Shown here piece after piece: positions 21,858 to 59,347 of a stretch of 64,000 nt of DNA. Every line of letters begins with the position of its first letter. The stretch's first letter is position 1. The notes under the pieces are model-generated. The model did no database searches. It had not been told where the DNA came from and saw nothing but the letters and a program-made list of their open reading frames with translations. Position numbers and translations under genes: made by a program. The stretch comes from an uncultured Desulfobacteraceae bacterium (GTDB taxonomy: Bacteria; Desulfobacterota; Desulfobacteria; Desulfobacterales; UBA11574): NCBI GenBank assembly GCA_964492995.1, contig CAZBOB010000003.1:7114-71113 (forward strand), read 5' to 3'.

Positions 21858-23450
21858 TTAAAGAATTCCCTTTGCTTTTAAAAATTCTTCTACCACCTCA
21901 GCTGTTCTTCTTTTTTTCCCATCCACCTCAACGTTCAAACGTTGCATCGTAGCATTGTCAATGAGTCCTCCGGAAAGTGATAGAACATCACCAAGTTTCG
22001 GATGGGTTTTCAGGATTTCTTCTCTGATGACAGGGGCAGCATGGTATGGAGGGAAAAATTTCCGGTCGTCTTTGAGCGGTTTTAAGTTATATGCTGCAAT
22101 ACGACCGTCAGTGGCAAAGGCGCATATCACATCCACTTCCTCTTTGGCCACGGCTTCGTACATGAGTGCAGGATCAAAATCCCGGACCTCACCAAATCGT
22201 AAACCATAGATCTGGCGGAGTCCCGGATAACCATCCGGCCTCTCCGCAAATTCTGCCGTGAAGCCCGCCCGTAGCTCTATAGCAGTATTTCCAAGATCAG
22301 AGATCCGGTTCCATTCGTTCTTCTTTGCATCTGCTTCACGGACCGTAATTGCGTATGTATTGTTAAATCCGAAAGGTTTCAGCCACTGTAGACCAAAGCG
22401 CTCATGGTAAGCTTTGGTGACGTGGCGCAGCGCTTCCTCGGGATCGGAAATCACCGGATGTTTTAGAATCACAGTCAATCCGGTCCCTGTGTACTCGGCA
22501 TAAAGGTCGATCTCTCCATTGACAAGGGCGCCATGACAGATCATTGTACCGCCAAGATTAAAACGACGTTCCACAATTAAATCGGTCTTTGTCTCAATCA
22601 GCTGAGCCATCATCTCCCCGAGGATGAGCTGTTCGGTAAAGTTTTTGGTTGCAATCCTGATAATTCTGTTACCTGTTTTCAATTGTGTTGCTGATTTGGA
22701 AATCCATCCGGGTTTTGTGAAGTAGGTAATGATACTGATCAGAACTAAAGCAACGGGTAACATAAAGGCCAGCCGTCGCATCAACGACTGAACCGATCCT
22801 TTTTTATCCCTTTTTCTTTCCGGTCGAAGCCCCCACTCAAAAGCCCCGATGGAAAAGTCTACAAACAAGGCGAGCAATGCCGCAGGTACGGCACCAAGAA
22901 GAATGAGCTTTGTATTGGCCAACGCCAGACCCCGATTAATGAACTGGCCCAGTCCGCCGGCTCCGATGAACGCCGAAAGGGTGGCGATGCCCACCCCCAC
23001 CACTGCCGCGGTTCGGATGCCGGCCACAATCACCGGCGCGGCCAAAGGTATTCTCACCATCATGAGTTGCTGGTATTCTTGCATACCGATTCCTTTGGCA
23101 GCTTCCATTACCTCAGCGGAGACTTCCTCTAGTCCTGTAAGGGTGTTTCTGGCAATCGGCAGCAACGCATAGAGGGTAAGGGCAATGAGGGCGGGTAGTA
23201 CACCGATTTTTTTGAGCAGTGCCAGCAAAAAGACCAGCATGGCCAGGCTTGGTATGGTCTGAAGGATACCAATGACACCCATCAGTAGCCCTCGCAGATA
23301 GGTGGCTCGAAAAAGTAGAATACCAACAGGGATCCCGATGAACATGGCTCCCAGAGTAGAACATCCTGTCAGCATGAGGTGTTCCCCGGTTCGAAGCCAG
23401 AGTTCCGGCAATCGTTCGACGACATACGCAACCATAGCATCTAAGCTCAT
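21858..23450 (-). CDS. osmoprotectant (glycine betaine/choline type) ABC transporter, permease fused to substrate-binding domain
   Basis: 530-aa ORF. The N-terminal half has the ABC permease EAA-type region (EAAKGIGMQEYQQLMMVRIPLAAPVI). The C-terminal half is OpuC/OpuB-type binding-protein-like (IRIATKNFTEQLILGEMM...DLYAEYTGTG). Confidence 0.85.
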   Translation of the reverse strand: MSLDAMVAYVVERLPELWLRTGEHLMLTGCSTLGAMFIGIPVGILLFRATYLRGLLMGVIGILQTIPSLAMLVFLLALLKKIGVLPALIALTLYALLPIARNTLTGLEEVSAEVMEAAKGIGMQEYQQLMMVRIPLAAPVIVAGIRTAAVVGVGIATLSAFIGAGGLGQFINRGLALANTKLILLGAVPAALLALFVDFSIGAFEWGLRPERKRDKKGSVQSLMRRLAFMLPVALVLISIITYFTKPGWISKSATQLKTGNRIIRIATKNFTEQLILGEMMAQLIETKTDLIVERRFNLGGTMICHGALVNGEIDLYAEYTGTGLTVILKHPVISDPEEALRHVTKAYHERFGLQWLKPFGFNNTYAITVREADAKKNEWNRISDLGNTAIELRAGFTAEFAERPDGYPGLRQIYGLRFGEVRDFDPALMYEAVAKEEVDVICAFATDGRIAAYNLKPLKDDRKFFPPYHAAPVIREEILKTHPKLGDVLSLSGGLIDNATMQRLNVEVDGKKRRTAEVVEEFLKAKGIL

Positions 23451-23533
23451 ATGAAGTGCCCCATTATGTCAAGGTGCCCGGCCGTTTTATCCAGGGCAAA
23501 CGCATTTGAATGCCAATAGATGGAGAACGCTCC

Positions 23534-23734
23534 GCGACGGCGTATATCTCTTTCTAACCGACTGAAACTTGTGCTTAAGCACCCGTAAGCCCTCGCCGCG
23601 CCGGAGTTATTAAGAACCATTCGTTGCTAAATGATCTCATTGATTTTTTGATTCATTACTTCATTCGGCTCGGGCTAACGCGTGCTAAAGCCCTTCAAAC
23701 AGTCAGTCGGTTTCCAAGAGAAACACGCCGTCGC
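23534..23734. repeat. ~200-bp imperfect palindrome between the ABC ATPase and permease genes
   Basis: GCGACGGCGT...AACCGACTGA...GCTTAAGCAC on the left pairs with GTGCTAAAGC...TCAGTCGGTT...ACGCCGTCGC on the right. Confidence 0.8.
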
Positions 23735-23749
23735 TACGCCGCACCGAAA

Positions 23750-24493
23750 TTAAATGTGTTTACCCTGCCGTTTTATGGTAAATAAATCTTGTACGAATTG
23801 GGTTGCCGGCATGTCCAATATATCCTTTTTCGTTCCGATCTGTTCCAGATGGCCCTCATGCAGAATTGCAATGCGGTCACCAATGAGGAGCGCTTCATGA
23901 AGGTCATGGGTTACAAAGACGATCGTCTTTTTAAGCTGATTTTTCAAGGTTAATAATTGTTGCTGGAGTGCTTCACGGGTGAGGGCATCAAGAGCACCGA
24001 ACGGCTCATCCATGAGTAAATAAGTAGGGTTTGCTGCAAGAGCGCGGGCAACGCCAACCCTTTGCTGCTGACCACCGGAGAGTTCATCGGGAAATCTTTG
24101 AGCAAAACTCTCGGCCGGGAGTCCGACAAGGTCTAATAGTTCCTGCATGCGCTCTCGCCTGGAAGGGATTGACCATCCCAGGAGCCGCGGAACAATTTCA
24201 ACATTCTGTTCAATGGTCATATGGGGGAACAGACCGATTCCCTGAAAAACATAACCTATTTGACGACGCAAATCTACGGGGTTGTGATCCATGATATCCT
24301 TCCCACCGACTTCAATGATTCCTTTGGTAGGTTCGATCAGGCGATTGATCATTTTAAGGGTAGTGGTTTTACCGCATCCTGATGAGCCCAAAAGGACCAG
24401 AGTTTCACCCATGCCCACGCTTAAAGAAAGATCTTTGACCGCATAGGAACGGCCGGCGTCAAATGTTTTAAAAACACGCGTTAGTTTGATCAT
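23750..24493 (-). CDS. osmoprotectant ABC transporter ATP-binding protein
   Basis: Walker A GSSGCGKTT, signature LSGGQQQRV and Walker B LLMDEPF. The start was taken at the internal Met (MIKLTRVFK). Confidence 0.9.
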   Translation of the reverse strand: MIKLTRVFKTFDAGRSYAVKDLSLSVGMGETLVLLGSSGCGKTTTLKMINRLIEPTKGIIEVGGKDIMDHNPVDLRRQIGYVFQGIGLFPHMTIEQNVEIVPRLLGWSIPSRRERMQELLDLVGLPAESFAQRFPDELSGGQQQRVGVARALAANPTYLLMDEPFGALDALTREALQQQLLTLKNQLKKTIVFVTHDLHEALLIGDRIAILHEGHLEQIGTKKDILDMPATQFVQDLFTIKRQGKHI

Positions 24494-24637
24494 GGTTTCT
24501 TTGATGGTTTGATAGAAAGGCCGTCTGGGTATAAATATTAGAAAAAAGTCTTGAGAACATAATTTATATTGATTTATTGATTTGTCTGAAGTAATAAATT
24601 GTTGGAAGTAAAAAGTTTTTAACAGGAACAAAATAAC

Positions 24638-25129
24638 ATGTCAACTGACAGCAGCGGCAATCTAAATACTATAAACAAAATATTTCCGCCTGACCAGACC
24701 AAGCAGATCATCTTTTCGATCCGCAGGCTCATTCAGGCGAGCGAGCTCTATACCAAAGAATTAAACAAAAAATATCAGGTAAGCGCGGCACAGCTCAACT
24801 GCATTTTAACACTTTATGAGTATGGCCCTTTACCGCCATCCAAAATCGCCAATCATATGATGGTTAAGTCCAGCACAGTCACTGGAGTTGTCGACCGCTT
24901 GGAAAAGAAAGGTCTTGCGGAGCGGATGCGAAACTCTCCGGATCGCCGCGTGATTACCATCCAACTCACCGAAGCCGGAAAGAAGTTGGCCCAAAATGCC
25001 CCGCCTCCCATCCAGCAAAAGATCATTGATGGTTTGAAACAAACTGAAAACGCCAAAAAAGAACAGATTGTGCGTTCCCTAAACATGCTGACCGACATGC
25101 TTGACATCCAGGATCTGGAGGTCAAGTAG
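24638..25129 (+). CDS. MarR family transcriptional regulator
   Basis: Winged-helix region LTLYEYGPLPPSKIANHMMVKSSTVTGVVDRLEKKGLAERMRNSPDRRV. It is divergent from the ABC transporter genes. Confidence 0.85.
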   Translation: MSTDSSGNLNTINKIFPPDQTKQIIFSIRRLIQASELYTKELNKKYQVSAAQLNCILTLYEYGPLPPSKIANHMMVKSSTVTGVVDRLEKKGLAERMRNSPDRRVITIQLTEAGKKLAQNAPPPIQQKIIDGLKQTENAKKEQIVRSLNMLTDMLDIQDLEVK

Positions 25130-25494: not shown

Positions 25495-26187
25495 ATGGAA
25501 ATCATACCGATCATAGAAAAAGATGAGTTGGCCAGGCTCTTGGGGGGCGACGAATTCGGCAACATTTCCCGTTCGACCCGCTTAAAAATAGAAAAACTGG
25601 AAACAATATTTGAAAAACTTGTCGAACCTTCTTTGTATCACCAGAACACGGGGATCGATTCAGTGGAAAAGGGGACCGTTCATCTTGAAGAAGGACCGGA
25701 ATTCAAAAGTCCGAAACTTTCAAAAGTGTTAAAAGACTGTGACGATATTATATGTTATATCGCAACGTTAGGTGATGGTGTCGACGGCGAAATCAATCGG
25801 CTCATGGACAAAAAGCACATGGCAGAAGCGTACATCCTGGACGCCATGGCATCTGTGGCTGCCGATAATATGGTGGCAACGTTTCATCGGCGTATGAAGG
25901 ATGAATATAAAAACCAGGGCAAACAGGTGACCCTATGTTTCAGTCCGGGGTATTGTGACTGGGCTATTACTGAACAGAAAAAACTTTTTAAATTATTAGA
26001 CTCACAGGATGTTGATGTTCAACTGAACGATTCATGCCTTATGACTCCCCTCAAGTCTATTTCGGGTGTATTTGGAATACAGTCTGATTATGAAAACGGT
26101 AAGACGCCTTACGATCCTTGCTGGGACTGCAACAAGACGGATTGTCCGGCAAGAAGGGCTCCCAAGAGAGAAAGGAAAAAAACATGA
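25495..26187 (+). CDS. stand-alone protein resembling the MetH (B12-dependent methionine synthase) activation domain
   Basis: TLCFSPGYCDWAITEQKKLFKLLD...LNDSCLMTPLKSISGVFG matches the PGY...Q..LF.LL...M.P..SVSG pattern of the SAM-binding reactivation domain. Its stop overlaps the next start (ATGA). Confidence 0.65.
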   Translation: MEIIPIIEKDELARLLGGDEFGNISRSTRLKIEKLETIFEKLVEPSLYHQNTGIDSVEKGTVHLEEGPEFKSPKLSKVLKDCDDIICYIATLGDGVDGEINRLMDKKHMAEAYILDAMASVAADNMVATFHRRMKDEYKNQGKQVTLCFSPGYCDWAITEQKKLFKLLDSQDVDVQLNDSCLMTPLKSISGVFGIQSDYENGKTPYDPCWDCNKTDCPARRAPKRERKKT

Positions 26188-27644
26188 AGATCCGAAGGGG
26201 ACTCAACGGAGGCCATTATAAGCCGTTAAGCGACAAGGATGTCGAAAAAATACATCAAACAAGCCTTAAGATCTTTTCAGAAGTAGGCGTACAGGTGAAT
26301 TTCCCGGAGGCGCTGGAGCTTTTTAAAAAAGCAGGAGCCAGCATCAATGATTCAACCAAAATAGCCAAATTCAACCCAAGGCTGGTTATGGAACTGATCA
26401 AACCGGCCCCTTCTGTTGTTCATCTTTGTGGCAGAGAAGACAGCGGCGAACTGGACTGCGAAATCGGCGGTAACAAGGTTTATATGGGAACAGGAGGTAC
26501 CGCCCTTAATGTTCAAGATCCCGGGGAAAGAACCGCACGACGGTCCAAATTAGAAGACATCAAGAACATGGCACGGCTGGTGGATGCTCTGGACAATGTA
26601 CATTTTTATATGCTCAATGTGTATCCCAATGATCTGCCGGTTGAAAGGGTGGATGTGAACCGGTTCGGTGCTGCCCTTAACAATACCCGCAAGCATGTAA
26701 TGGGCGGGGTTTATACCCTGGAAGGGGTTAGAAATGTGATTAAGATGGCGGAACTTATCGCAGGTTCTCCGGAAAAACTCAGAAAGCGCCCGTTTATCTC
26801 CATGGTAACCTGTAATATCAGCCCGTTTATGCTTGATGAAAGCTATGGTCAGTTAGCCATAGAGGTTGCAAGGCAAGGTATACCCGTGGTTGTACCGGTA
26901 GAGCCCCTTTGCGGTGCGACTGCGCCTATTACACTGGCCGGCAATCTGGTCGTGCAAAACGTGGACACCCTTATCGGGGTTATGCTCACCCAATTGGTCA
27001 ATCCGGGCACTCCGGTGTTATACGGATGCATATCTTCGATTACTGATCTTCGCGATATGAAATACCTGTCCGGCGCCATTGAAATGGGTCTGATGAATGC
27101 GGCTTCGGCTCAGATGGCAAATTTCTATAACCTCCCCTTATATTCCACCGCCGGCATGTCTGATGCCAAAATCAACGATTCACAGTCCGGTTATGAATCG
27201 GCATTGACCGGTTTGATGGTGGCTCTGGCCGGCGGTAACTTTATTCATGATGCCGCCGGGTTCCTGGAATTTTGTATGACGGCTTCATATGATAAGCTTG
27301 TAATAGATAACGAAATTATCGGTATGGTAATGCGTGCTGTCGAAGGAATCACGGTTGATGAAGAATCCCTGGCATTCGAAGTTTTAAAAAAAGCCGGGCC
27401 GGGGGGTCATTTTGTTTCAAACCGGCACACTCGAAAATTCATGCGCACCGAGCAGTACCAGCCCCAACTCAGCGACAGGAATAACAGGGAAATTTGGGAG
27501 ACAAAAGGAGCAAAATCCCTCCGGGTTCGTGCTTCAGAGAAAGCAAGGGAAATTTTAGAACGACCTGAAACTCCGGTGCTTTCATCTGATATGCGCGATA
27601 TCATCCGAAAAGAAATTCCCGGGCTGAAAGCCGGTATCATGTAA
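26184..27644 (+). CDS. MttB-superfamily (trimethylamine methyltransferase family) protein, non-pyrrolysine, paralog 1
   Basis: 486-aa uninterrupted ORF, colinear with the three other paralogs (shared blocks such as TRKHVMGG, GIPV, TAPITLAG, DNEIIGM, GPGGHF). Confidence 0.85.
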   Translation: MKIRRGLNGGHYKPLSDKDVEKIHQTSLKIFSEVGVQVNFPEALELFKKAGASINDSTKIAKFNPRLVMELIKPAPSVVHLCGREDSGELDCEIGGNKVYMGTGGTALNVQDPGERTARRSKLEDIKNMARLVDALDNVHFYMLNVYPNDLPVERVDVNRFGAALNNTRKHVMGGVYTLEGVRNVIKMAELIAGSPEKLRKRPFISMVTCNISPFMLDESYGQLAIEVARQGIPVVVPVEPLCGATAPITLAGNLVVQNVDTLIGVMLTQLVNPGTPVLYGCISSITDLRDMKYLSGAIEMGLMNAASAQMANFYNLPLYSTAGMSDAKINDSQSGYESALTGLMVALAGGNFIHDAAGFLEFCMTASYDKLVIDNEIIGMVMRAVEGITVDEESLAFEVLKKAGPGGHFVSNRHTRKFMRTEQYQPQLSDRNNREIWETKGAKSLRVRASEKAREILERPETPVLSSDMRDIIRKEIPGLKAGIM

Positions 27645-27972: not shown

Positions 27973-28201
27973 CAGAAATGAGCAATTTTTTGCAAGGTCA
28001 AGGACAATTCTGCAGGATAGCGGAATTGGACGGCTGAATAGCCGCCCGTAAGGGCGAGGGGCATGGACGCCCCGAGTCAAATCAAGGAATTACGCGTCCC
28101 GCCCCGAGGCGGGAACAAGTAATTCCGCAGATTGACCCCAGAGAAATAGGCTCCGCATTTCACGGGGCAGGCGCAGAGATTGCGGAAAAGGGCCATTTCT
28201 G
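27973..28201 (+). repeat. nested-hairpin repeat, copy D (expanded by GC-rich hairpin insertions)
   Basis: Outer arms are CAGAAATG/CATTTCTG and inner arms are GCAAT/ATTGC. The 5' part (AATGAGCAATTTTTTGCAAGGTCAAGGA) and 3' part (ATTGCGGAAAAGGGCCATTTCT) align with copies B and C. Confidence 0.65.
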
Positions 28202-28224
28202 GACGGAAACGGAGGTATTCATAT

Positions 28225-29019
28225 ATGATCATCATCGGGGAAAAAATTAACGCAACCCTTTCTCCTGTAAAATCCATAATGTTGAATCGAGAGAAAGAAA
28301 ACCTTATCGAGCTGGCAAAAAAACAGGCGGAATCCGGCGCAAACTTTATTGATGTAAATGTGGGTACCGGTGTGGGATCTCTTGAAGATGAAATTGAATC
28401 TATCCAATGGGCGGTTGAAAGTATTCAAGAACAAATCAAAACACCCCTTTGCATTGACAGTGCAGATCCAAAGGTGATGGAAACCGGGCTTAAAATTCTG
28501 AATAACAAACCTGCCATGATCAATTCTGCCAAAGCTGAGAAGTCTAACCTGGAAGCGGTAGTGCCCCTTGCCGCCGAACATGATTCTTTTCTAATTGCAC
28601 TGGCAATGGATGAAAGCGGTATTCCAAAAACGGTGGAAGGAAGGCTCCGGTGTTGCGATACAATCCTCGGCGCCTGTGAAAAATATGGGGTTTCTATTCA
28701 AAATCTTTATATTGATCCTTTGGTCATGCCGATCAGTACGGATATAAATTCGGGAATGGTGACGCTAAAAACGTTAACCGCCATTAAAGAAAAATTTCCC
28801 GGTGCCAGAACCGTGACAGGACTTTCAAACGTATCCTACGGCTTACCCGAACGGGGCAGACTTAATGTTGCCTACCTGCACATGTGTATATCTGCGGGGC
28901 TCGATGCCGCCATTATCGATCCCCTGGATCAAACGCTGATGGCATCGGTAAAAACAGGAGAAGTATTGGCCGGGAAAGATCGACATTGCCGCCGGTACAT
29001 GCGTGCTTTCCGAAAGTAA
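28225..29019 (+). CDS. methyltetrahydrofolate:corrinoid methyltransferase-like protein (MeTr/MtgA/MtrH family), copy 1
   Basis: MIIIGEKINA... start with a GGAGG Shine-Dalgarno. It has pterin-binding barrel blocks (FIDVNVG, LCIDS, MINS, YIDPLV, GLSNVSYGLP). It is a paralog of 56275-57075. Confidence 0.82.
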   Translation: MIIIGEKINATLSPVKSIMLNREKENLIELAKKQAESGANFIDVNVGTGVGSLEDEIESIQWAVESIQEQIKTPLCIDSADPKVMETGLKILNNKPAMINSAKAEKSNLEAVVPLAAEHDSFLIALAMDESGIPKTVEGRLRCCDTILGACEKYGVSIQNLYIDPLVMPISTDINSGMVTLKTLTAIKEKFPGARTVTGLSNVSYGLPERGRLNVAYLHMCISAGLDAAIIDPLDQTLMASVKTGEVLAGKDRHCRRYMRAFRK

Positions 29020-29039
29020 AGAATCTATAGGAGGATATA

Positions 29040-30575
29040 GTGATTGAATCATACAGACAAGGTGTATTGGTCAAACCTTATGAACGGTTGAATCGGGATC
29101 AGGTAAAATGGCTTGATCAAGCGTCATTAAACATGCTGTCCAACCCGGGTATCTGGTGTTATAACGAGCGGGCGGCCAAGCTTTTCAAAGACCATGGCGC
29201 CCAAGTCCGGGAAGAAAGCGATTCGAACGCGAAATGGTGGCGGGTAAGTTTTCCGGGCGGACTCATCAAAGAAGCCGTTGCAAAGGCACCTTCCCGGCTT
29301 GTTTTAGGCGCAAGAAAACCGGAAAATCGCCTGTTTATCGATGCTGAAATTCCAAGGGCTTATTTTGGATCAGGATCTGAAGCAAATATCTGGCTCGATG
29401 CGGAAATGGAGGTTTTTGTCAGTGAAAAAAACAACTCTGTCAAAGTAAAAGTGCCCCGATACACAGAGCGTCGTGGCAGCACTGCCTTGTTAAGTCGTGC
29501 TGCAAAGCTCTGCGAAAGATTGGAGCATCTCGATTTTTTCATCCGGCCATTAAACATACAGGATCCCGAGATCACATCAGATAACCATGATGTGAACAAA
29601 TTTTTTGCCAGCCTCAATAACATCACCAAACATGTCCAGGCCGGTTTGACCAGCCTGGCGCGTTTCGAAGATGTTGTAACCATGGCCGAGATTATTGCAG
29701 GAGGTAAAAAGGCCTTAAGAGACAATCCGATTATTTCCTTTATTGCATGCGTATTTAAAAGTCCGCTTCAAATCGTGGATGACACGGCAGAAAAGGTATT
29801 TGCTATTGTTGAAGCAGGGCTTCCGTTGGTTATTTCTTCTTCACCTCAGGGAGGATCATCGGCTCCTATCCAGGAAGCAGGCATGGTTGCACAGATTAAT
29901 GCCGAAATTCTGGCCGGCATTACGCTGACGCAACTGATCAAAGAAGGGGCGCCGGTCCTATATGGCAGCGTTCCGGTCAGAGCACGTCTGGATGATCTTC
30001 ATGACCTTTACGGCTGCCCGGAATTCAATCAGTATAATATCGACTGCGTTCAATTAGCCCGCTACTATAAGATACCGTGCTATTCAACCGCCGGTGTGGG
30101 CGATGCCCATGTGCCGGGAATGCAGGCCATGTTTGAGAAACTGTTTACCCATCTTTATATGGCAATGAGCGGAGCACACTATATCCATTACGCGTTCGGG
30201 CTTTTGGATCGGACCAATTGTTTTTGCCCGCTTCAGGCTGTTCTCGACAATGAACAGATTGGAAAAATCAAGCATTGTCTTAGAGAGCCCAAGATCAGTC
30301 CAACAGAGATTGATGACACGCTCAATATGGTAAAAAAAGTCATGGCCTCAAGCCATCGACTTTTTGCCCGTCATGCTCGCAAGGCCATGCACAGCGGGGA
30401 TGTCTCCAATCCATATCAGTTTGAAACCAAGGACATGGAAGACAAAGTCATCGAAAATGCGCTCGAGTACATGGCTCGACTGGAAAGCGAACCGGCGCCT
30501 CACCTGGACTCAGATGTGGTGGAACACATATATGATAAGGTTCCGGGCCTTCTGCCGGGCTTAAAATCAAATTAA
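29040..30575 (+). CDS. MttB-superfamily protein, non-pyrrolysine, paralog 2
   Basis: 511-aa ORF with a GTG start behind AGGAGG. It has no internal stop and carries MttB family blocks (ITKHVQAG, SAPIQEAG, DNEQIG). Confidence 0.82.
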   Translation: MIESYRQGVLVKPYERLNRDQVKWLDQASLNMLSNPGIWCYNERAAKLFKDHGAQVREESDSNAKWWRVSFPGGLIKEAVAKAPSRLVLGARKPENRLFIDAEIPRAYFGSGSEANIWLDAEMEVFVSEKNNSVKVKVPRYTERRGSTALLSRAAKLCERLEHLDFFIRPLNIQDPEITSDNHDVNKFFASLNNITKHVQAGLTSLARFEDVVTMAEIIAGGKKALRDNPIISFIACVFKSPLQIVDDTAEKVFAIVEAGLPLVISSSPQGGSSAPIQEAGMVAQINAEILAGITLTQLIKEGAPVLYGSVPVRARLDDLHDLYGCPEFNQYNIDCVQLARYYKIPCYSTAGVGDAHVPGMQAMFEKLFTHLYMAMSGAHYIHYAFGLLDRTNCFCPLQAVLDNEQIGKIKHCLREPKISPTEIDDTLNMVKKVMASSHRLFARHARKAMHSGDVSNPYQFETKDMEDKVIENALEYMARLESEPAPHLDSDVVEHIYDKVPGLLPGLKSN

Positions 30576-30618
30576 TACCAATTTGCAATAACAACAACCA
30601 AGAGTGGAGGAGTGGGTG

Positions 30619-31299
30619 ATGAATCCAAGTGAACTTATAGAGAAAATCGCATTTAATGTCATTCAGGGAAGAGTGGAAGCTGAAGACGAAGGCTTTGATC
30701 CGGGACTGGAAGGTCAGCCGGGAGTCACTGAGCTGGTGAATGAGGCATTGAATCAACATATAGATCCAAAGAAGATATTGATAGAATCATTAACGGAATC
30801 CATGGAAATAGTGGGGGAAAAATTTGAGCAAAATGAGTATCTGATCCCGGACATGCTGGCTTCTGCCGAATGTGTGGGTGTGGCCACGGATTTGCTGGCG
30901 CCTTATCTTATTAAAGCGGGTGTGGAGAGCAAGGGCAAATTTGTAATTGCCACGGTGAAGGGCGACCTTCACGACATCGGGAAAAACATTGTTGCCATTA
31001 TGTTAAAAGGCGCAGGCTACGAAATCATCGATCTAAAATCTGATGTGAGTACGGATCGCATCGTGGATGCGGTTAAAGAGAGTGAGGCTCCGTTTTTAGG
31101 GCTTTCGGCGCTTTTAACCACAACCATGCGCAATATGGAAGATGTGATCCGGGAACTGGAAAAACAAGGACTTCGAAATAAGGTTAAGGTTCTTATTGGC
31201 GGCGCCCCGACCTCCAAGGAATTTGCGGCACAAATCGGGGCGGATGCTTATTGCAAAGATGCGTTTCAGGCCCTTGAGGTCGTTAAAAGTTTTGAATAG
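30619..31299 (+). CDS. corrinoid (B12-binding) protein, copy 1
   Basis: Carries B12-binding signatures GDLHDIGKNIV (DxHxxG), SALLTTTM and GGAP. Confidence 0.88.
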   Translation: MNPSELIEKIAFNVIQGRVEAEDEGFDPGLEGQPGVTELVNEALNQHIDPKKILIESLTESMEIVGEKFEQNEYLIPDMLASAECVGVATDLLAPYLIKAGVESKGKFVIATVKGDLHDIGKNIVAIMLKGAGYEIIDLKSDVSTDRIVDAVKESEAPFLGLSALLTTTMRNMEDVIRELEKQGLRNKVKVLIGGAPTSKEFAAQIGADAYCKDAFQALEVVKSFE

Positions 31300-31307
31300 G
31301 AGTAATT

Positions 31308-32576
31308 ATGAAACAAAAGGGAGAAAAAAAGGCGTATACACAGGCACACAGCACGGGAAAATATGAAAAAGCAAGCGGACTGACCGGAAAATATGACAAT
31401 GTTCGAAGGTTTTGGGAAGATCAGAACACCGCTATTTTTCTGCGCCCTGCACTGAACAATTTGGTGGAACGGAAAAAAAGAAACCTCGAAAGAATACGTA
31501 TTCTTGACCTGGGTTGCGGCAGCGCCGACGGATACGACCTGTTAATGAATGTAACAACCAAAGATCCCGGTCTTTTCGAATTCATTACCGCTGCCATTAC
31601 ACAGGACATGCTTCAAGAATATGCGGGTGTCGATATTAACCCCGATCTTCTTCAACAGGCCGAAGAATATATCGGCCAGCTTCCCAAAACACGGTTTATT
31701 CAAGCGGACCTTTCAAACGGCCTGACGCCTGAGATAACCGAAAGTCCTCCTTTTGATGTATATTTTACCTCCTACGGTACCTTCTCACACTTTTATGATC
31801 ATCAGTCTGTGAAAATTATCGCCGATATTTGCAGGCATGCACCGGAGCGGGCGATTTTTATGGGAGACTGGCTGGGTCGTTATACCTGTGAATGGCAGGA
31901 TCTGTGGCATCATCCCGCTGACGAAGAATATTTCATGGATTATCGAATTTCCTATATTTATCCTGAAGAAGAACGGGATCAAATGGAGATTTCATCCTTT
32001 CCGTTACGTCTGATAACAAAAGATGAAATTATGAAAATTATTAACCAGGCGTCACAGGAATCAGGGATTGCGATTGAGCCGATCAAATTTTTTGATCGTT
32101 CCATATACATCGGTCGCCACATGGATACCAGGGACTACAACGCTAATTGCCCAAAGTTGCGGTTTCCGGTGAATTCACTCTTTGAGGGATATGTTCGTAC
32201 AGATCTTGAAAGCCTTTTGGTCGACTATGTGCCCCGGCCGGGGTTTGATCATCTGAACAATTTTTTTGAAATGTTTTTCATGTGCTGCAACACCTTGGTA
32301 AACCATACGATTTCACTGCTCAGCAATTATGATACAGAAGATGAAAAACTAAATGATGTTCCGAAAATTATGCCCTATTATCCGGACTCTCTTAAAGAAG
32401 CCATGGAAGCCATGCGCAGAGTCATTGAAGGGGTTGGATGGGTGCCCTGGGGCGATGTTCGGGCCAATGTCATAGAGCCTCACCTGGGCTTCTCTCTTCG
32501 CAAGCTCGAAACGGATCTTCAGCCCGGCACAGGATTTGGACACGGAATAGTGGGAATCTTCGAAATACGCAAATAA
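31308..32576 (+). CDS. class I SAM-dependent methyltransferase, 422 aa, with a large uncharacterised C-terminal part
   Basis: Motif I ILDLGCGSADGYDL plus downstream Rossmann-fold blocks (GVDINPD, FDVYFTSYGTFSH). It begins 9 nt after the corrinoid protein gene. Confidence 0.65.
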   Translation: MKQKGEKKAYTQAHSTGKYEKASGLTGKYDNVRRFWEDQNTAIFLRPALNNLVERKKRNLERIRILDLGCGSADGYDLLMNVTTKDPGLFEFITAAITQDMLQEYAGVDINPDLLQQAEEYIGQLPKTRFIQADLSNGLTPEITESPPFDVYFTSYGTFSHFYDHQSVKIIADICRHAPERAIFMGDWLGRYTCEWQDLWHHPADEEYFMDYRISYIYPEEERDQMEISSFPLRLITKDEIMKIINQASQESGIAIEPIKFFDRSIYIGRHMDTRDYNANCPKLRFPVNSLFEGYVRTDLESLLVDYVPRPGFDHLNNFFEMFFMCCNTLVNHTISLLSNYDTEDEKLNDVPKIMPYYPDSLKEAMEAMRRVIEGVGWVPWGDVRANVIEPHLGFSLRKLETDLQPGTGFGHGIVGIFEIRK

Positions 32577-32646
32577 TGCAAAAGGAAGGCTAAACTCATA
32601 TACGCCTTTGTCGTCGCTATTAAAAATATAACCTTTGGAGAATACT

Positions 32647-33816
32647 ATGAGCAAAGAGCAGTTCTTTTTTACATCCGAATCCGTGACAGAAGGGCATCCC
32701 GATAAAGTCGCCGATGCCATATCGGATTCAATTTTAGATGCAATGATTGCAGAGGATAAAAACAGCAGGGTTGCCTGTGAGACCCTGGTAACAACCGGTT
32801 TGGTCTTGGTCGCCGGTGAAATCACAACCGACTGTTATGTCGATATTCCTGAACTGGTTCGAGAAACCATACGAGATATCGGTTACCATTCATCTCAAAT
32901 GGGATTTGACTGGCAAACCTGCTCGGTTATTACAAGTATTGACCAACAATCAGCAGATATCGCTCAGGGAGTCAATGTTGACGAGGGACTTTTCAAGGAG
33001 CAGGGGGCGGGTGATCAAGGTTTGATGTTTGGCTATGCCTGTGATGAAACCCCGGAACTCATGCCAATGTCTATTATATTTGCCCACAAATTAACCCGCC
33101 GTCTGGCAACGGTTCGAAAGAACGGTGCTCTGGATTTCCTGAGACCTGATGGTAAATCCCAGGTAACCATCGAATACGAGAACGGAACTCCGAAACGGAT
33201 TGATACGATAATCGTCTCTGCCCAGCACAAACCGGAAGTTTCGTATGAGGACCTAAAAGAAGCGGTGATTGAGGAAGTGGTCAAAAAAATTATCCCACAG
33301 GATATGGTGGATGGAGATACCAGATATTTAATTAATCCAACCGGTCGGTTTGTGATCGGCGGCCCCATGGGAGATTGTGGTCTTACCGGACGGAAAATTA
33401 TTGTCGACACCTATGGTGGTCAGGGCCGTCACGGTGGGGGGTGCTTTTCCGGAAAGGATCCTTCAAAGGTAGATCGCAGCGCTTCGTATATGGCGAGACA
33501 TGTAGCCAAAAATATCGTGTCTGCCGGTCTTGCTAAAAAATGCGAAGTACAAATCGCCTATGCCATTGGTGTTGCAGAACCTGTATCTGTGATGGTCAAC
33601 CTTATAGGAACCGGCGTGGTTCCTGAGCATAAAGTGAGAAAAAGCATCTTGGAAACCTTCGATTTACGGCCCGCCGCCATCATTAAATATCTTGATCTGC
33701 TACGGCCAATATATCGCAAAACTTCGGTCTACGGGCACTTCGGCCGCAGTGAACCCGAATTCACCTGGGAAAAAACCTATATGGCGGAAACGCTAAGAGA
33801 GAAGACGAGGTTGTAA
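32647..33816 (+). CDS. metK: S-adenosylmethionine synthase
   Basis: Full-length ORF with [46 protein letters not shown] and [16 protein letters not shown]. The start was taken at ATG 32647. Confidence 0.96.
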
Positions 33817-33865: not shown

Positions 33866-35389
33866 ATGAGTGGTTTTGCTGTCGTTTACGATCAACCAAA
33901 TACTCTGGTTCTGGAAGAAATGTTTAAAAGGATTGGTCATCGAGGTCCATATTTGTCAGGGAAATTTGAGGGCCAACGGATCTTAATGGCCCAGAACTAT
34001 CTGAGAGCCGACTGTCCTGAGGCGCATCCGGAAAACGATCCATTGCCTGTCACCAATCCAGGGGGTAAAAACAGTTCCATCTGTTACGACGGCCAAATGG
34101 GCAACTCCAAAGATCTATGCAATACTCATGGGATCCCGAACGGTGCTTTCAAAGAAGAGCGGCTGATTCTACACCTATTCAAAAAGTATGATCATAAGAT
34201 GTTCCAGCATTTGGATGATGCTATCTTTGCATTCGTGATTTCCGATGGAGAATACCTATTTGCAGCCAGAGATCTTTTAGGCATCAAAACCCTTTTTTAT
34301 GGAAGAAAGAATGGGGCGCTTTATCTGTCTTCCGAACTTAAAAGTCTGATAGGAATCACCGACGATGTATATGAATTTCCGCCGGGACATTACATGGACA
34401 GCACGGGCACGCTATTCCGGTTTGCCGAACTTCCGAAAAGTCAGCCTGAAATCTTACATAGCGATCCCAACGAGATGGCGGAAACCATCAGAGACATTAT
34501 CCGGCGCAGTTTCCAAAACCGTGTGAACTTTGAAGCGCCCACAGGAAGCCTTCTCAGTGGCGGAATAGACAGCAGTGTTATTGCCTGGCTGGCCGGTAAT
34601 GCCTACAGGGAAAAATTTGGAAAGGATGAGCGCTTGAAGACATTTGCCCTGGGTGTAGGAGAAAGCGAAGACATTACATGCGCCCGTTTAATGGCCGACT
34701 ATATCCGCTCCAACCACCATGAATTGATTGTAAACCTTGATCAAATTCTGGCGGTACTGCCCCAAGTAATTTGGAGCCTGGAATCCTTTGATCCTTCTTT
34801 GGTGAGAAGCTCTGTGTCGAATTATCTCATCTCTAAATATGCAAGAGAACAAGGAATAGAGGTCCTGCTTTCCGGAGAAGGCGGTGATGAAGTCTTTTGC
34901 GGGTATTTATATCTTAAAGACTTTCCAGCTGAAGAATTATTCGCACAACAAATGAAATGTATCGGCTTTTTACATAATAATGCGTCATTACGCCTTGACC
35001 GAATGAATCTATGCAATTCCGTCCGGGTTGTTACCCCCTTGATATCCGGAGAACTGCTCAAATATGCCATGGGCATTCCTGCTGAATATAAGCAAAGACC
35101 GGAAGGAAATCAAAAAATCGAAAAATGGATTTTCAGAAAGGCTTATGAAAACGTACTGCCCAAAGAGATTGTATGGCGGCTCAAACAGGAATTTTCTCAA
35201 GGATCCGGGTCTGCTGATGTGCTTCCCAAATATTTTGATGAGACGGTTAAAGATGAAGAGTTAAAAGAAGCTCAGGGCAGTTATCCGATGGTCCGGAGCA
35301 AAGAGGAGCTGTATTATTTTAAAATCTTCATAGAACATTTTGGCAGAGGACGAGCAGTAGAAACGGTTGGCCAGTGGATTCGATTATAA
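33866..35389 (+). CDS. asparagine synthetase B-like ATP-dependent amidoligase lacking the N-terminal Cys nucleophile
   Basis: 507-aa ORF with the PP-loop SGGIDSS and AsnB-type blocks (LLSGEGGDE, LRLDRMN). The N-terminus reads MSGF instead of MCG. Confidence 0.8.
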   Translation: MSGFAVVYDQPNTLVLEEMFKRIGHRGPYLSGKFEGQRILMAQNYLRADCPEAHPENDPLPVTNPGGKNSSICYDGQMGNSKDLCNTHGIPNGAFKEERLILHLFKKYDHKMFQHLDDAIFAFVISDGEYLFAARDLLGIKTLFYGRKNGALYLSSELKSLIGITDDVYEFPPGHYMDSTGTLFRFAELPKSQPEILHSDPNEMAETIRDIIRRSFQNRVNFEAPTGSLLSGGIDSSVIAWLAGNAYREKFGKDERLKTFALGVGESEDITCARLMADYIRSNHHELIVNLDQILAVLPQVIWSLESFDPSLVRSSVSNYLISKYAREQGIEVLLSGEGGDEVFCGYLYLKDFPAEELFAQQMKCIGFLHNNASLRLDRMNLCNSVRVVTPLISGELLKYAMGIPAEYKQRPEGNQKIEKWIFRKAYENVLPKEIVWRLKQEFSQGSGSADVLPKYFDETVKDEELKEAQGSYPMVRSKEELYYFKIFIEHFGRGRAVETVGQWIRL

Positions 35390-56274: not shown

Positions 56275-57075
56275 ATGCTCATTGTGGGAGAAAAAATCAA
56301 CACGAGCCGGAAGCGTATTGCTGAAGCGGTCGAAAAACGAGATGCTTCATTCATCGGCAAGGTTGCCCAAAGCCAGGCACAAGCAGGCGCCCATTATATT
56401 GACGTAAATGCCGGAACTTTTTTGGAAAAAGAAGCCGATTGCCTGTGCTGGCTGGTAGAAGCCGTCCAATCTGCTGTAGACCTGCCGCTCTGTCTGGACA
56501 GCCCGAATCCGGATGCCCTAACCGAGGCCATAAAACATCACAACGGCGAGCCGATGATCAATTCTATTTCCTTAGAGAAAGATCGTTTTTCTTCTCTTCT
56601 TCCTGTGGTCGCCAGTCACCCCTGCTGTGTCGTTGCGCTATGTATGGCTGAAACGTCAATGCCCGCTACCGTGGAAGAAAGAGTGCAAGTCGGATCAGAG
56701 CTTATACAAAAACTTACCGGCCAAGGAATTCCCGTGGAAAAGATCTACGTGGACCCACTGGTGCAGCCTGTTTCGGTTGACACCCGTATGGGCAATGCCA
56801 TATTAGAAGCCATCCGTAACATCATGAACGATTTTCCGGGGGTGAACACCATCTGTGGTCTTTCCAATGTTTCCTTCGGCCTTCCGTCTCGTCGTCTCAT
56901 CAATCGAAACTTTTTGGCTCTCTGTATGGCTTACGGCCTGTCTGCCGCCATTTTAGACCCCTGCGACACGGAACTGATGTCAACACTACTTGCCATTGAG
57001 ATGCTTCTCGGTCGCGATGAATATTGCGAAAACTTTATAGACGCGTATCAAAACGGCCGATTAACCATGGGATGA
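56275..57075 (+). CDS. methyltetrahydrofolate:corrinoid methyltransferase-like protein (MeTr/MtgA/MtrH family), copy 2
   Basis: Starts MLIVGEKINT and carries YIDVNAG, LCLDS, MINS, YVDPLV and GLSNVSFGLP. Confidence 0.85.
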   Translation: MLIVGEKINTSRKRIAEAVEKRDASFIGKVAQSQAQAGAHYIDVNAGTFLEKEADCLCWLVEAVQSAVDLPLCLDSPNPDALTEAIKHHNGEPMINSISLEKDRFSSLLPVVASHPCCVVALCMAETSMPATVEERVQVGSELIQKLTGQGIPVEKIYVDPLVQPVSVDTRMGNAILEAIRNIMNDFPGVNTICGLSNVSFGLPSRRLINRNFLALCMAYGLSAAILDPCDTELMSTLLAIEMLLGRDEYCENFIDAYQNGRLTMG

Positions 57076-57168
57076 GACTTTGAGTAATTTTTTAATACGT
57101 TTTGAGAAATTAAAAATAACAAACTTGCCCACTAACAATAAAATGCAACATGCTATCAAAAGGGGGAG

Positions 57169-57813
57169 ATGACTATGAGTGACATTAAGGCATTAAATGA
57201 AGCAGTAATCAAGGGGGACATTCAGACAGCTGTATCGCTGACCCAGAACGCAGTGGATGCGGGCACAAAGGCTCAAGAAGTTCTTGATCAAGGCCTCATT
57301 GCTGCAATGGATCAGGTTGGCGACAAATTTGCAAAAGGAGAGATGTTTGTTCCGCAAATGTTACGTTCTGCCAAAGCCATGCAAGAGTGTCTGAAGCTGA
57401 TCAAACCACAGTTTCAGGAGGGAGATCTCACGTCCAAAGGGAAAGTGGTCATCGGTACCGTAAAGGGAGATTTGCACGATATCGGGAAGAACCTGGTTGC
57501 CATGATGATGGAGGGCGCAGGATTTACCATCACCGATCTAGGGGTTGATATTTCGGCGGATACGTTTGTACAAAAAGTGCAGGAGGTTGAACCCGATATC
57601 CTGGCCATGTCGGCGTTACTGTCCACAACCATGCCGGGTATGCGAGAAACCATAGAGACACTCCAGAAAGCCGGGATCAAGGACAAAGTGATGGTGATGA
57701 TTGGCGGGGCACCGGTTACGGCCAATTTTGCCAGTGAAATCAAGGCGGATGCTTATGCACCCGATGCGGGATCTGCCGTGATTGAAGCTAAAAAGGTACT
57801 CGGCATTTCCTGA
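57169..57813 (+). CDS. corrinoid (B12-binding) protein, copy 2
   Basis: Carries GDLHDIGKNLV, SALLSTTM and GGAP. The second ATG at 57175 has the better Shine-Dalgarno spacing. Confidence 0.88.
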   Translation: MTMSDIKALNEAVIKGDIQTAVSLTQNAVDAGTKAQEVLDQGLIAAMDQVGDKFAKGEMFVPQMLRSAKAMQECLKLIKPQFQEGDLTSKGKVVIGTVKGDLHDIGKNLVAMMMEGAGFTITDLGVDISADTFVQKVQEVEPDILAMSALLSTTMPGMRETIETLQKAGIKDKVMVMIGGAPVTANFASEIKADAYAPDAGSAVIEAKKVLGIS

Positions 57814-57843
57814 ACCCCAAACCATTCAAACAAGGAGTAACGC

Positions 57844-59292: not shown

Positions 59293-59347
59293 CTTCAATG
59301 TATGGTATTTCTTTGTAAATCAGCAGCATCGGAGAGTTGAATTCATC

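What the first reader, a model, noticed from the sequence alone, without database searches (positions are those of the whole stretch)
25495..26187. Stand-alone MetH activation-domain homolog translationally coupled to an MttB paralog, while cluster 2 uses RamA
The 230-aa protein carries the PGY...Q..LF.LL...M.P..S.SG pattern of the MetH reactivation (SAM-binding) module. It has no Hcy, folate or B12 domains. Its stop overlaps the MttB1 start (ATGA at 26184-26187). Cluster 1 has no RamA-like gene. Cluster 2 has one at 61805-63646 but lacks this domain. So the two clusters appear to use different strategies to rescue oxidised Co(II) corrinoid: SAM-dependent reductive methylation versus ATP-dependent reduction. 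That would also rationalise metK sitting in cluster 1.
Basis: inference. Interest (0 to 1): 0.6.

Follow-up and report, generated by a model that had tools for sequence, protein, structure and literature searches.

The report
Cysteine-tailed MetH activation domain in MttB operon
A small stand-alone copy of the B12-repair domain of methionine synthase, carrying an extra four-cysteine metal site, is the conserved first gene of a quaternary-amine methyltransferase operon found in hundreds of anaerobes, which points to an undescribed helper for keeping corrinoid proteins active, used alongside the known ATP-driven activase rather than in its place.

Summary
Positions 25495-26187 encode a 230-aa stand-alone Met_synt_B12 protein. 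Its stop overlaps the MttB1 start (ATGA, 26184-26187). Pfam, a PDB profile search (TM0269/1J6R) and an AlphaFold/Foldseek model all give the MetH activation fold.

Three results are new:
- The genome's MetH core has its own tail-less activation paralog, so the window gene is not the MetH partner.
- The window protein belongs to a large family defined by GYCDW plus a C-terminal NPCxxCxxxxCxxRR tail (four invariant Cys). It is the first gene before an MttB1 ortholog in 142 loci from more than ten phyla.
- In relatives, "cluster 1" and "cluster 2" form one 14-gene string, MarR-ActD…DUF1638-RACo.

RACo occurs in 44 of 50 genomes that carry the operon. Divergent Cys-tailed paralogs share operons with RACo.

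The "SAM instead of ATP" contrast is therefore not supported. ActD is most likely a dedicated corrinoid-protein reactivation accessory that works alongside RamA. SAM use is uncertain for this protein, because the Arg of RxxxGY is Cys and the Glu1101 equivalent is Ala. The metK link is not conserved.

I found no paper describing this family. An earlier scan note recorded the same pairing on other DNA.

The parts
25495..26187 (+). ActD: 230-aa stand-alone MetH-type activation domain (class II SAM-methyltransferase fold) with a Cys-rich tail
   Evidence: AF2 model pLDDT 83; Foldseek best hit 1J6R at E 8e-12, followed by E. coli, T. thermophilus and human MetH activation domains.
25936..25956 (+). 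Motif C148-F-S-P-G152-Y153-C154. This is the RxxxGY SAM/cobalamin-face motif with Arg replaced by Cys, followed by the family-invariant Cys154.
   Evidence: Alignments to T. thermophilus and E. coli MetH. In 197 close relatives, position 148 is C in 122, R in 69 and P in 6, while G152, Y153, C154 and D155 are invariant.
26119..26160 (+). C-terminal tail C209-x2-C212-x4-C217-x3-R221-R222: putative metal or [4Fe-4S] site together with Cys154
   Evidence: Invariant in the family. About 126 of 131 representatives with Cys154 have a three-Cys tail, and 15 of 16 with Gly154 have none. The model has low pLDDT here.
26184..27644 (+). MttB1, a non-Pyl MttB-family methyltransferase whose start overlaps the ActD stop
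   Evidence: Pfam MTTB 2.5e-109. Equally similar to MtgB (2QNE) and to M. barkeri MttB.
28180..29019 (+). Pterin-binding (MeTr/MtgA-like) methyl-corrinoid:THF methyltransferase
   Evidence: Pfam Pterin_bind. Conserved at this position in the operon.
29040..30575 (+). MttB2, a second and more divergent MttB-family methyltransferase
   Evidence: Pfam MTTB 5.8e-58.
30604..31299 (+). Corrinoid protein CoP1 (cap plus B12-binding domain; DxHxxG at residue 121), the presumed client of ActD
   Evidence: Pfam B12-binding and B12-binding_2; His-on motif.
31308..32576 (+). 422-aa class I SAM-methyltransferase-like protein, a conserved operon member of unknown role
   Evidence: Pfam Methyltransf_25; conserved synteny.
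32635..33816 (+). metK (SAM synthetase), a lineage-specific insertion and not a conserved operon member
   Evidence: Pfam. Found inside the operon only in the window and in L036.
33866..35389 (+). AsnB-like protein, the conserved last gene of the cluster 1 half
   Evidence: Pfam Asn_synthase; synteny.
24638..25129 (+). MarR-family regulator upstream of ActD
   Evidence: Pfam MarR; conserved position.
21858..24631 (-). OpuA-type glycine-betaine ABC transporter (fused permease/binding protein, and ATPase), divergent from the operon
   Evidence: Pfam OpuAC, BPD_transp_1 and ABC_tran. Often conserved next to the operon.
56275..60784 (+). Cluster 2 methyltransferase genes: pterin MT2, CoP2, MttB3, MttB4
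   Evidence: Pfam. In relatives they lie directly downstream of the AsnB-like gene.
61155..61664 (+). DUF1638 protein, a known companion of RamA-like activases
   Evidence: Pfam PF07796 8.8e-29; Price et al. 2018, PMC5764234. Not related to ActD (hhalign probability 0.2%).
61712..63646 (+). RACo/RamA-type ATP-dependent corrinoid reductive activase (2Fe-2S plus ASKHA domains), the last gene of the ancestral unit
   Evidence: Pfam RACo_C_ter, Raco_middle, RACo_linker and Fer2; L172 and L173.

Best explanation
ActD is a dedicated maintenance or reactivation factor for the corrinoid protein(s) of this MttB methyltransferase system. It derives from the stand-alone (TM0269-type) MetH activation domain.

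Proposed mechanism:
1. When CoP1 falls to inactive Co(II), ActD docks on its cap/B12 domain in the way the activation domain does in MetH.
2. The invariant Gly152-Tyr153 loop covers the upper face of the corrin.
3. An electron enters through a metal centre formed by Cys154 and the tail Cys209, Cys212 and Cys217. This is most likely a [4Fe-4S] cluster.
4. In the family at large, SAM held by the RxxxGY/Glu site methylates Co(I) to give methyl-Co(III), which re-enters the cycle through the pterin methyltransferase.

ActD works in the same system as the ATP-dependent RACo/RamA and DUF1638 proteins, not as a substitute for them.

Shown here: homology, predicted fold, operon membership, separation from the MetH paralog, the Cys signature, and co-occurrence with RACo. 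Inferred: docking, the identity of the metal, SAM use, and how the work is divided with RACo.
For: Homology and fold:
- PF02965 above the gathering cut-off.
- Family profile against 1J6R 6.3e-21 and against T. thermophilus MetH 5e-4.
- All 18 Foldseek hits listed at E<=1e-3 (19 counted) are MetH activation domains; TM-score 0.71/0.82 to 1J6R.

Not the MetH partner:
- MetH (811 aa, no activation domain) on contig C52 is preceded by an overlapping 220-aa paralog that is 33% identical to ActD (E 6e-25).
- The genome holds only these two family members.

Operon membership:
- ActD-MttB1-pterinMT-MttB2-CoP is conserved in about 70 of 80 Desulfobacterota loci and about 68 of 72 loci from other phyla.
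- The ActD-to-MttB1 gap is 60 nt or less in 113 of 142 loci.
- At least 595 species genomes carry the [YF]SPGYCDW signature.

Residues:
- G152, Y153, C154, D155, C209, C212, C217 and R221 are invariant or nearly so.
- The tyrosine equals Tyr1139/Tyr1132, which covers the cobalamin in MetH (PMC10567725).
- About 89% of the 50%-identity representatives keep Arg148, mostly with Asp or Glu at 128.

Metal site:
- Cys154 and the tail occur together or not at all.
- CX2CX4C spacing ligates [4Fe-4S] in CoFeSP AcsC/CdhE (PMC4023990). The same motif is reported for ThiC in papers found, whose text I did not open.

Client: CoP1 has the MetH-like DxHxxG motif.

Partnership with RACo.
Against: - There is no biochemical evidence for any member of this family.
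- In this protein and its clade (122 sequences) Arg148 is Cys. The Glu1101 equivalent is Ala, Thr, Gly or Ser in most of them, so canonical SAM contacts for the ribose and the carboxypropyl group are missing.
- Asp946, Tyr1189 and Tyr1190 could not be mapped.
- The tail is modelled with low confidence and no coordinates were available, so the proximity of Cys154 to the tail is inferred only from co-occurrence. A structural Zn site is equally compatible.
- Divergent Cys-tailed paralogs next to RACo lack both Arg and Tyr of RxxxGY. This shows the scaffold can work without the MetH chemistry.
- RACo is present in most genomes that carry the operon and could by itself suffice for reduction.
Confidence: 0.5

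Rival explanations
1. ActD alone rescues cluster 1's corrinoid protein by SAM-dependent reductive methylation, as a RamA-independent alternative to the ATP-dependent route used by cluster 2.
For: Cluster 1 has ActD and no RACo, and cluster 2 has RACo and no ActD. Six of 50 genomes that carry the operon gave no RACo match. Most of the family keeps RxxxGY and an acidic residue at 128. TM0269 is reported to be required for reactivation of T. maritima MetH (title of Huang et al. 2007, as cited in PMC10293825).
Against: In L172 and L173 the two clusters are one co-directional string that ends in DUF1638-RACo. They are also adjacent in about a dozen other loci. RACo is present in 44 of 50 genomes, and the six without it are MAGs of unknown completeness. 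The own genome has two further orphan RACo genes. Arg148 and Glu128 are replaced in the window protein. metK linkage is not conserved.
Confidence: 0.15
2. ActD is a SAM-independent chaperone or electron adaptor. It holds the corrinoid protein in the open, His-off 'activation' conformation, for cobamide loading or for reduction by RACo, and may relay electrons through its Cys4 centre without any methyl transfer.
For: Arg148 and Glu128 are lost in the window's clade while Cys148 is fixed in 122 of 122 sequences. The third subtype, which lies next to RACo, keeps the Cys tail but lacks both Arg and Tyr. Apo-MetH sits in the activation-domain-on conformation in which cobalamin is loaded (PMC10567725). 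ActD co-occurs with RACo.
Against: The wider subtype that contains the window protein keeps RxxxGY and the acidic residue in most lineages, which argues that SAM binding is under selection. Gln144 at the Tyr1130-equivalent position is fixed exactly where Arg148 is lost, which could be a compensatory ribose contact.
Confidence: 0.25
3. ActD is simply a trans-acting reactivation subunit of the split MetH, and lies next to MttB by chance.
For: MetH in this genome lacks an activation domain. Stand-alone activation proteins that serve MetH are known (TM0269).
Against: MetH has its own overlapping upstream paralog of the tail-less GYGD type. ActD-MttB1 adjacency is conserved in 142 loci across many phyla.
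Confidence: 0.04
4. ActD is a non-canonical [4Fe-4S]/SAM enzyme of the ThiC or B12-radical-SAM kind, doing radical or cluster-assisted chemistry on the corrinoid or on a substrate instead of simple repair.
For: A SAM-binding fold combined with a C-terminal CX2CX4C motif, as reported for ThiC (papers found). The operon holds unexplained SAM-methyltransferase-like and AsnB-like genes.
Against: Four conserved Cys, not three, are available in this subtype, so no open iron site for SAM is expected. There is no similarity to radical SAM folds.
Confidence: 0.05

Closest known systems
TM0269 of Thermotoga maritima (PDB 1J6R), the stand-alone AdoMet-binding activation subunit of a split MetH
   Same: It is stand-alone, about 200-230 aa, with the same fold (Foldseek E 8e-12, TM 0.71/0.82; profile E 6e-21 over nearly the full length). 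It shares the SPGY loop and the PxKS(I/V)(S/T) strand.
   Different: TM0269 and the MetH-linked paralog in this genome have GYGD and end without a Cys tail. ActD has GYCDW plus the NPCx2Cx4Cx2RR tail, has Cys in place of the motif Arg, and is encoded with MttB/corrinoid-protein genes instead of metH.
C-terminal activation domain of E. coli, T. thermophilus and human MetH (Pfam PF02965; class II SAM methyltransferase; 1MSK, 8SSC, 2O2K)
   Same: It has the same core fold. It has the Gly-Tyr that faces cobalamin, and the family consensus keeps RxxxGY and the Glu1101 equivalent.
   Different: ActD is not fused to Hcy, folate or B12 modules. It lacks about 100 N-terminal residues of the long form. 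Asp946, Tyr1189 and Tyr1190 could not be mapped. It has an extra Cys4 site. Its presumed client is a separate corrinoid protein of an MttB system. Kozbial & Mushegian 2005 (PMC1282579) describe this fold class as restricted to methionine synthase.
RamA/RACo/RACE ATP-dependent reductive activases of corrinoid enzymes
   Same: They have the same presumed task, returning Co(II) corrinoid proteins to the cycle. They are encoded in the same gene clusters, and both probably carry an Fe-S centre.
   Different: There is no sequence or fold relationship. ActD has no ASKHA ATPase domain and no 2Fe-2S ferredoxin domain. ActD co-occurs with RACo and does not replace it.
[4Fe-4S] domain of the corrinoid iron-sulfur protein large subunit (AcsC/CdhE), motif CX2CX4CX16CP
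   Same: It has identical CX2CX4C spacing, in a protein whose cluster serves a cobalt corrinoid centre (PMC4023990).
   Different: ActD's fourth Cys would come from the core (Cys154), not from 16 residues downstream. No homology was detected, and the cluster in ActD is only inferred.

Membership tests
Pfam PF02965 Met_synt_B12 / class II SAM-methyltransferase (MetH activation) fold | Sequence match to the family model above the curated cut-off | tested here: met
   32.5 bits against a cut-off of 25, covering residues 83-193.
Pfam PF02965 Met_synt_B12 / class II SAM-methyltransferase (MetH activation) fold | The characteristic fold of the activation domain | tested here: met
   AF2 model with pLDDT 83. 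All 18 Foldseek hits listed at E<=1e-3 (19 counted) are MetH activation domains (1J6R, 8SSE, 1MSK, 6BM5, 2O2K and others).
Pfam PF02965 Met_synt_B12 / class II SAM-methyltransferase (MetH activation) fold | RxxxGY motif: Arg1134 contacts the SAM ribose and Tyr1139 stacks on adenine and covers the cobalamin | tested here: inconclusive
   Gly152 and Tyr153 are present and invariant. Arg is replaced by Cys148 in this protein and its clade (122 of 197). It is Arg in 69 of 197 close relatives and in about 89% of wider representatives.
Pfam PF02965 Met_synt_B12 / class II SAM-methyltransferase (MetH activation) fold | Acidic residue equivalent to Glu1101, which binds the SAM carboxypropyl moiety | tested here: not met
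   By alignment through T. thermophilus and E. coli MetH, the equivalent is Ala128. It is Glu or Asp in 97 of 197 relatives and in every relative that keeps Arg148 apart from two with Asn or Gln. The alignment is at low identity, so the equivalence is provisional.
Pfam PF02965 Met_synt_B12 / class II SAM-methyltransferase (MetH activation) fold | SAM binding and reductive methylation of Co(II)/Co(I) cobalamin | not testable with these tools
   This needs purified protein.
TM0269-type stand-alone MetH reactivation subunit | Encoded next to, and serving, a MetH that lacks the activation domain | tested here: not met
   The gene precedes MttB1. MetH on C52 has its own overlapping paralog. ActD-MttB1 adjacency is seen in 142 loci.
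TM0269-type stand-alone MetH reactivation subunit | Single-domain protein of about 200-230 aa that aligns over its full length | tested here: met
   The profile aligns residues 7-204 to 1J6R residues 22-212.
RamA/RACo reductive activases | ASKHA-type ATPase domain (RACo_C_ter) with RACo middle and linker regions and an N-terminal Fe-S ferredoxin domain | tested here: not met
   ActD has none of these domains. The window's true member is at 61712-63646.
Proposed new subfamily: Cys-tailed ActD of corrinoid methyltransferase operons | GYCDW core motif, C-terminal Cx2Cx4Cx2RR tail, and position as first gene before an MttB1 ortholog | tested here: met
   All three features are present in the window protein and conserved across loci L007-L161.

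The most novel reading that the evidence does not exclude
Cys-tailed ActD proteins are a previously unrecognised, widespread class of iron-sulfur-containing corrinoid-protein reactivases. They would be a self-contained 'MetH activation domain plus electron-entry cluster' that performs SAM-coupled reductive methylation of separate corrinoid proteins in three-component (MttB-type and URO-D-type) methyltransferase systems of anaerobes from more than ten phyla. This would be a third reactivation route, operating together with RamA/RACo, and it would take the class II SAM-methyltransferase fold beyond methionine synthase.
Probability: 0.3. Interest if true: 0.8.

Novelty: new variant of a known kind. 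Interest (0 to 1): 0.64.

Why it matters
Reactivation of oxidised corrinoid proteins limits every cobalamin-dependent methyl-transfer pathway, including betaine, methylamine and methoxy-aromatic catabolism, acetogenesis and methanogenesis. The literature I could search treats it as the job either of RamA/RACo (ATP-driven) or of the activation domain built into MetH (SAM-driven).

Three things would follow from a conserved MetH-type activation protein with its own four-Cys centre, encoded as the first gene of a widespread MttB operon and repeatedly alongside RACo:
- The two chemistries would be combined in one system.
- The class II SAM-methyltransferase fold would have clients other than methionine synthase.
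- In vitro reconstitutions of MttB-family enzymes, which normally borrow Methanosarcina RamA, may lack a native factor.

It also defines a 14-gene unit, with unexplained SAM-methyltransferase-like and Cys-less AsnB-like genes, that is common in sediment anaerobes and worth characterising.

Tried and rejected
- **DUF1638 as a remote homolog of ActD.** hhalign gave probability 0.2%, so this is rejected.
- **metK as a supplier of SAM to ActD.** metK lies inside the operon only in the window and in L036, and on the opposite strand in L131. It is not a conserved link.
- **Literature.** Six full-text searches combined PF02965, Met_synt_B12, TM0269 and the usual names of the domain with MttB, corrinoid or glycine betaine. 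None found a paper linking this domain to MttB or corrinoid-protein systems. PMC10418091 (mlp clusters) is unrelated. Huang et al. 2007 on TM0269 is not held.
- **NCBIfam.** It gave only sub-threshold MetH hits. The ESM Atlas gave only generic names.
- **Tree test.** A treekit test of monophyly of the tail-less forms did not finish. A FastTree on core columns put 12 of 15 GYGD forms in one pure clade, but with support of only 0.14, so I do not rely on it.
- **RNA evidence.** Only Logan contigs of metatranscriptomes were available, mostly 90-95% identical and therefore from relatives. They cover both genes, and one contig (26118-26317) spans the ActD/MttB1 junction. This is compatible with co-transcription but proves nothing, because DNA carry-over is possible and contigs show no ends.
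- **Promoter and terminator scan of 24.5-28.3 kb.** It found no more sites than shuffled sequence.
- **Orphan RACo genes.** Those on C118 and C126 have no methyltransferase neighbours, so their clients cannot be assigned.
- **Model coordinates.** They are not exposed to scripts, so distances between Cys154 and the tail could not be measured.
Full report
**Observation**

The ORF at 25495-26187 (+) is open and encodes 230 aa. The ATG at 25495 matches the N-termini of its homologs (MEIIPI…). Its TGA at 26185-26187 overlaps the ATG at 26184 of a 486-aa MTTB-family protein.

The protein passes Pfam PF02965 (32.5 bits, cut-off 25) and carries no other domain. It matches the stand-alone T. maritima protein TM0269 (PDB 1J6R) at 2.8e-6. 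A profile of 16 family members matches 1J6R at 6.3e-21 over nearly the full length, and T. thermophilus MetH at 5e-4.

An AlphaFold2 model has mean pLDDT 83, with only residues 200-230 of low confidence. In Foldseek it retrieves 1J6R first (E 8e-12, TM 0.71/0.82). Every other hit listed at E<=1e-3 is a MetH activation domain from T. thermophilus, E. coli or human.

**Gene neighbourhood**

Cluster 1 reads as follows:
- a divergent OpuA-type betaine ABC transporter;
- MarR;
- ActD, MttB1, a pterin methyltransferase, MttB2 and a corrinoid protein with a DxHxxG motif;
- a class I SAM-methyltransferase-like protein, metK, and an AsnB-like protein.

Cluster 2 reads: pterin methyltransferase, corrinoid protein, two MttB genes, DUF1638, and RACo/RamA. 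All four MttB genes of the genome lie in this window.

**ActD is not the MetH partner**

The assembly is a salt-marsh MAG of 461 contigs, 97.6% complete. It has one metH, of 811 aa with Hcy, pterin, cap and B12 domains and no activation domain. Directly upstream of it, overlapping its start, is a 220-aa ORF that Pfam scores below threshold (17 bits). That ORF is 33% identical to ActD (E 6e-25).

A family HMM finds only these two genes in the genome. MetH therefore has its own TM0269-like subunit, and ActD is a second, specialised paralog.

**A large, distinct family**

A word-indexed search returned 473 stand-alone relatives. An exhaustive profile search found 8,176 clusters at 50% identity (579 at E<=1e-30). 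Among the best 150 representatives, two forms separate cleanly:
- about 126 of 131 proteins with GYC(D)W also carry a C-terminal three-Cys tail, consensus NPCxxCxxxxCxxRR;
- 15 of 16 proteins with GYG(D) end without a tail. This is the TM0269/MetH-linked type, which includes the paralog on C52.

In 197 closer relatives Gly152, Tyr153, Cys154 and Asp155 are invariant, and Cys209, Cys212, Cys217 and Arg221 are nearly so (195-196 of 197). Four invariant cysteines that appear and disappear together suggest a metal site.

CX2CX4C is the spacing that ligates the [4Fe-4S] cluster of the corrinoid iron-sulfur protein subunits AcsC/CdhE (PMC4023990). The same motif is reported for ThiC (papers found, whose text I did not open). 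Cys154 directly follows Tyr153. That tyrosine is the equivalent of Tyr1139/Tyr1132, which covers the cobalamin in the MetH reactivation state (PMC10567725). A cluster at this position would be well placed to pass an electron to cobalt. This is inference: the tail is poorly modelled and I could not obtain coordinates.

**SAM contacts**

According to Kozbial & Mushegian (PMC1282579), SAM in E. coli MetH is held by these residues:
- Asp946 and Glu1101 (carboxypropyl moiety);
- Arg1134 and Tyr1130 (ribose);
- Tyr1139 and Tyr1189 (stacking on adenine);
- the main chain of Tyr1190.

Alignment through T. thermophilus and E. coli MetH gives these equivalents in ActD:

| E. coli MetH | ActD position | Residue in the window protein |
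|---|---|---|
| Arg1134 | 148 | Cys |
| Gly1138-Tyr1139 | 152-153 | Gly-Tyr |
| Glu1101 | 128 | Ala |
| Tyr1130 | 144 | Gln |

In the window protein and its Desulfobacterales clade (122 of 197 sequences) position 148 is Cys. In this clade position 128 is mostly Ala, Thr, Gly or Ser. All 69 sequences with Arg148 have Glu, Asp, Asn or Gln at 128. About 89% of the wider representatives keep Arg148.

The family as a whole therefore looks SAM-competent, but this protein has lost two canonical contacts. Two observations suggest remodelling and not decay. Cys148 is fixed in the clade, and Gln144 is fixed exactly where Arg148 is lost. SAM binding by this protein remains an open question.

**Operon membership**

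A scan of 185,579 species genomes gave 498 relatives with one pattern set and at least 595 with the other. Of the 80 closest loci, all Desulfobacterota, about 70 show the order MarR | ActD-MttB1-pterinMT-MttB2-CoP-SAM-MT-like-AsnB-like.

The same order appears in about 68 of 72 further loci. These come from Planctomycetota, Acidobacteriota/Aminicenantes, Spirochaetota, Nitrospirota, Dehalococcoidia, Bacteroidota, Fibrobacterota, Myxococcota, Eubacteriales and others. In some of them a third MttB replaces the SAM-MT-like gene.

In 142 loci ActD is followed on the same strand by an MttB1 ortholog. The gap is 60 nt or less in 113 of them, and the ATGA overlap occurs in 15. ActD is thus a fixed component of this methyltransferase system. 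metK is not: it sits inside the operon only here and in L036.

**Relation to RamA**

- In two relatives (L172, L173) a single co-directional 14-gene string runs MarR-ActD-MttB1-pterinMT1-MttB2-CoP1-SAM-MT-AsnB-pterinMT2-CoP2-MttB3-MttB4-DUF1638-RACo.
- Cluster 2 genes also directly adjoin cluster 1 in about a dozen other loci.
- The window's two "clusters" are therefore halves of one unit, separated here by about 21 kb (35.4-56.3 kb).
- RACo is detectable in 44 of 50 genomes that carry the operon. The six without it are MAGs of unknown completeness.
- The own genome has two more orphan RACo genes.

More divergent Cys-tailed paralogs also sit inside other corrinoid methyltransferase operons together with RACo:
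- RACo followed by an overlapping ActD-like gene (L162);
- CoP-ActD-RACo-URO-D-URO-D-pterinMT (L165);
- RACo-regulator-CoP-URO-D-CobW-ActD (L166).

These paralogs keep the Cys tail but have SPGS in place of RxxxGY. They are a third subtype that cannot use the MetH Tyr/Arg chemistry.

Price et al. showed that a RamA-like protein plus DUF1638 reactivates a split MetH that lacks PF02965 (PMC5764234). MtgBCD systems are likewise linked to RamA and DUF1638 (PMC12478193). ActD is not related to DUF1638. The evidence therefore points to ActD and RACo being used together, not as alternatives.

**Best explanation and rivals**

The best-supported reading (about 0.5) is that ActD is a dedicated reactivation accessory for the operon's corrinoid protein. 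It would dock as the activation domain does in MetH. It would use a Cys4 centre, probably [4Fe-4S], for electron entry. In most lineages it would use SAM to trap Co(I) as methyl-Co(III). It would act in concert with RACo/DUF1638.

The rivals are:
- a SAM-independent cap, loading or electron-adaptor role (0.25), favoured by the lost SAM contacts and by the third subtype;
- a radical-SAM-like role (0.05);
- a MetH partner (0.04).

**Novelty**

Stand-alone activation domains are known (TM0269). What appears to be new is the Cys-tailed form, its fixed place in MttB and URO-D corrinoid methyltransferase operons across many phyla, and its pairing with RACo. I found no paper on it in the library searched. 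A classic survey states that this SAM-binding fold is restricted to methionine synthase (PMC1282579). Databases name these proteins only generically.

An earlier first-stage note of this scan (e1-3557204) recorded the same ActD-first, RACo-last arrangement on another genome. I confirmed that arrangement independently in L172 and L173.

I rate this a new variant of a known kind. It is of clear interest to corrinoid enzymology, but it rests entirely on sequence, predicted structure and gene context.

Noticed in passing
window 25495-35389 and 56275-63646; L172:653-19489; L173:1854-18518: Clusters 1 and 2 of the window are one contiguous, co-directional 14-gene unit in relatives, running from MarR-ActD to DUF1638-RACo. 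In the window and its closest relative (G044) it is split by tens of kb that include a sucrose synthase gene (53495-55951). The SAM-methyltransferase-like and AsnB-like genes are conserved members with no obvious role in a demethylation pathway.
   Followed up: partly
own genome contig C52:471-3540 (L006:1-3016, minus strand): An 811-aa MetH without an activation domain is preceded by an overlapping 220-aa stand-alone activation protein of the GYGD, tail-less type. Pfam scores it below its cut-off (17.1 bits against 25), so annotation pipelines would probably miss it.
   Followed up: yes
L162:791-3108; L165:3120-9948; L166:6431-13570; L164, L168-L171: A third subtype of the fold keeps the Cx2Cx4C tail but has SPGS..W in place of RxxxGY. 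It lies in URO-D-type and MttB-type corrinoid methyltransferase operons, often in the same operon as RACo, and once with a CobW-family GTPase.
   Followed up: partly
window 27645-28179: A gap of about 535 bp separates MttB1 from the pterin methyltransferase. Close relatives have almost no gap (for example L008, 3 nt). Metatranscriptome contigs show many variant joints at 27.9-28.2 kb, consistent with an inserted repeat element that is also abundant elsewhere.
   Followed up: no
own genome contigs C118:4583-6562 and C126:3880-5964: Two further full-length RACo/RamA paralogs have no methyltransferase or corrinoid-protein neighbours. Their neighbours are Usp, radical SAM, flavodoxin-like and cytochrome c genes. 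Their clients are unknown.
   Followed up: partly
window 32635-33816: A complete metK is inserted between the SAM-methyltransferase-like and AsnB-like genes. Among about 150 related loci this occurs only here and in L036. A metK C-terminal fragment also lies at 19578-19862.
   Followed up: partly
window 25936-25938 and 25924-25926 (residues Cys148 and Gln144): Within the Desulfobacterales clade, the loss of the motif Arg (Arg148 to Cys, 122 of 122 sequences) coincides with fixation of Gln at 144 (the Tyr1130 equivalent) and of Tyr at 88. This may be a compensatory rebuilding of the ribose-binding site.
   Followed up: no
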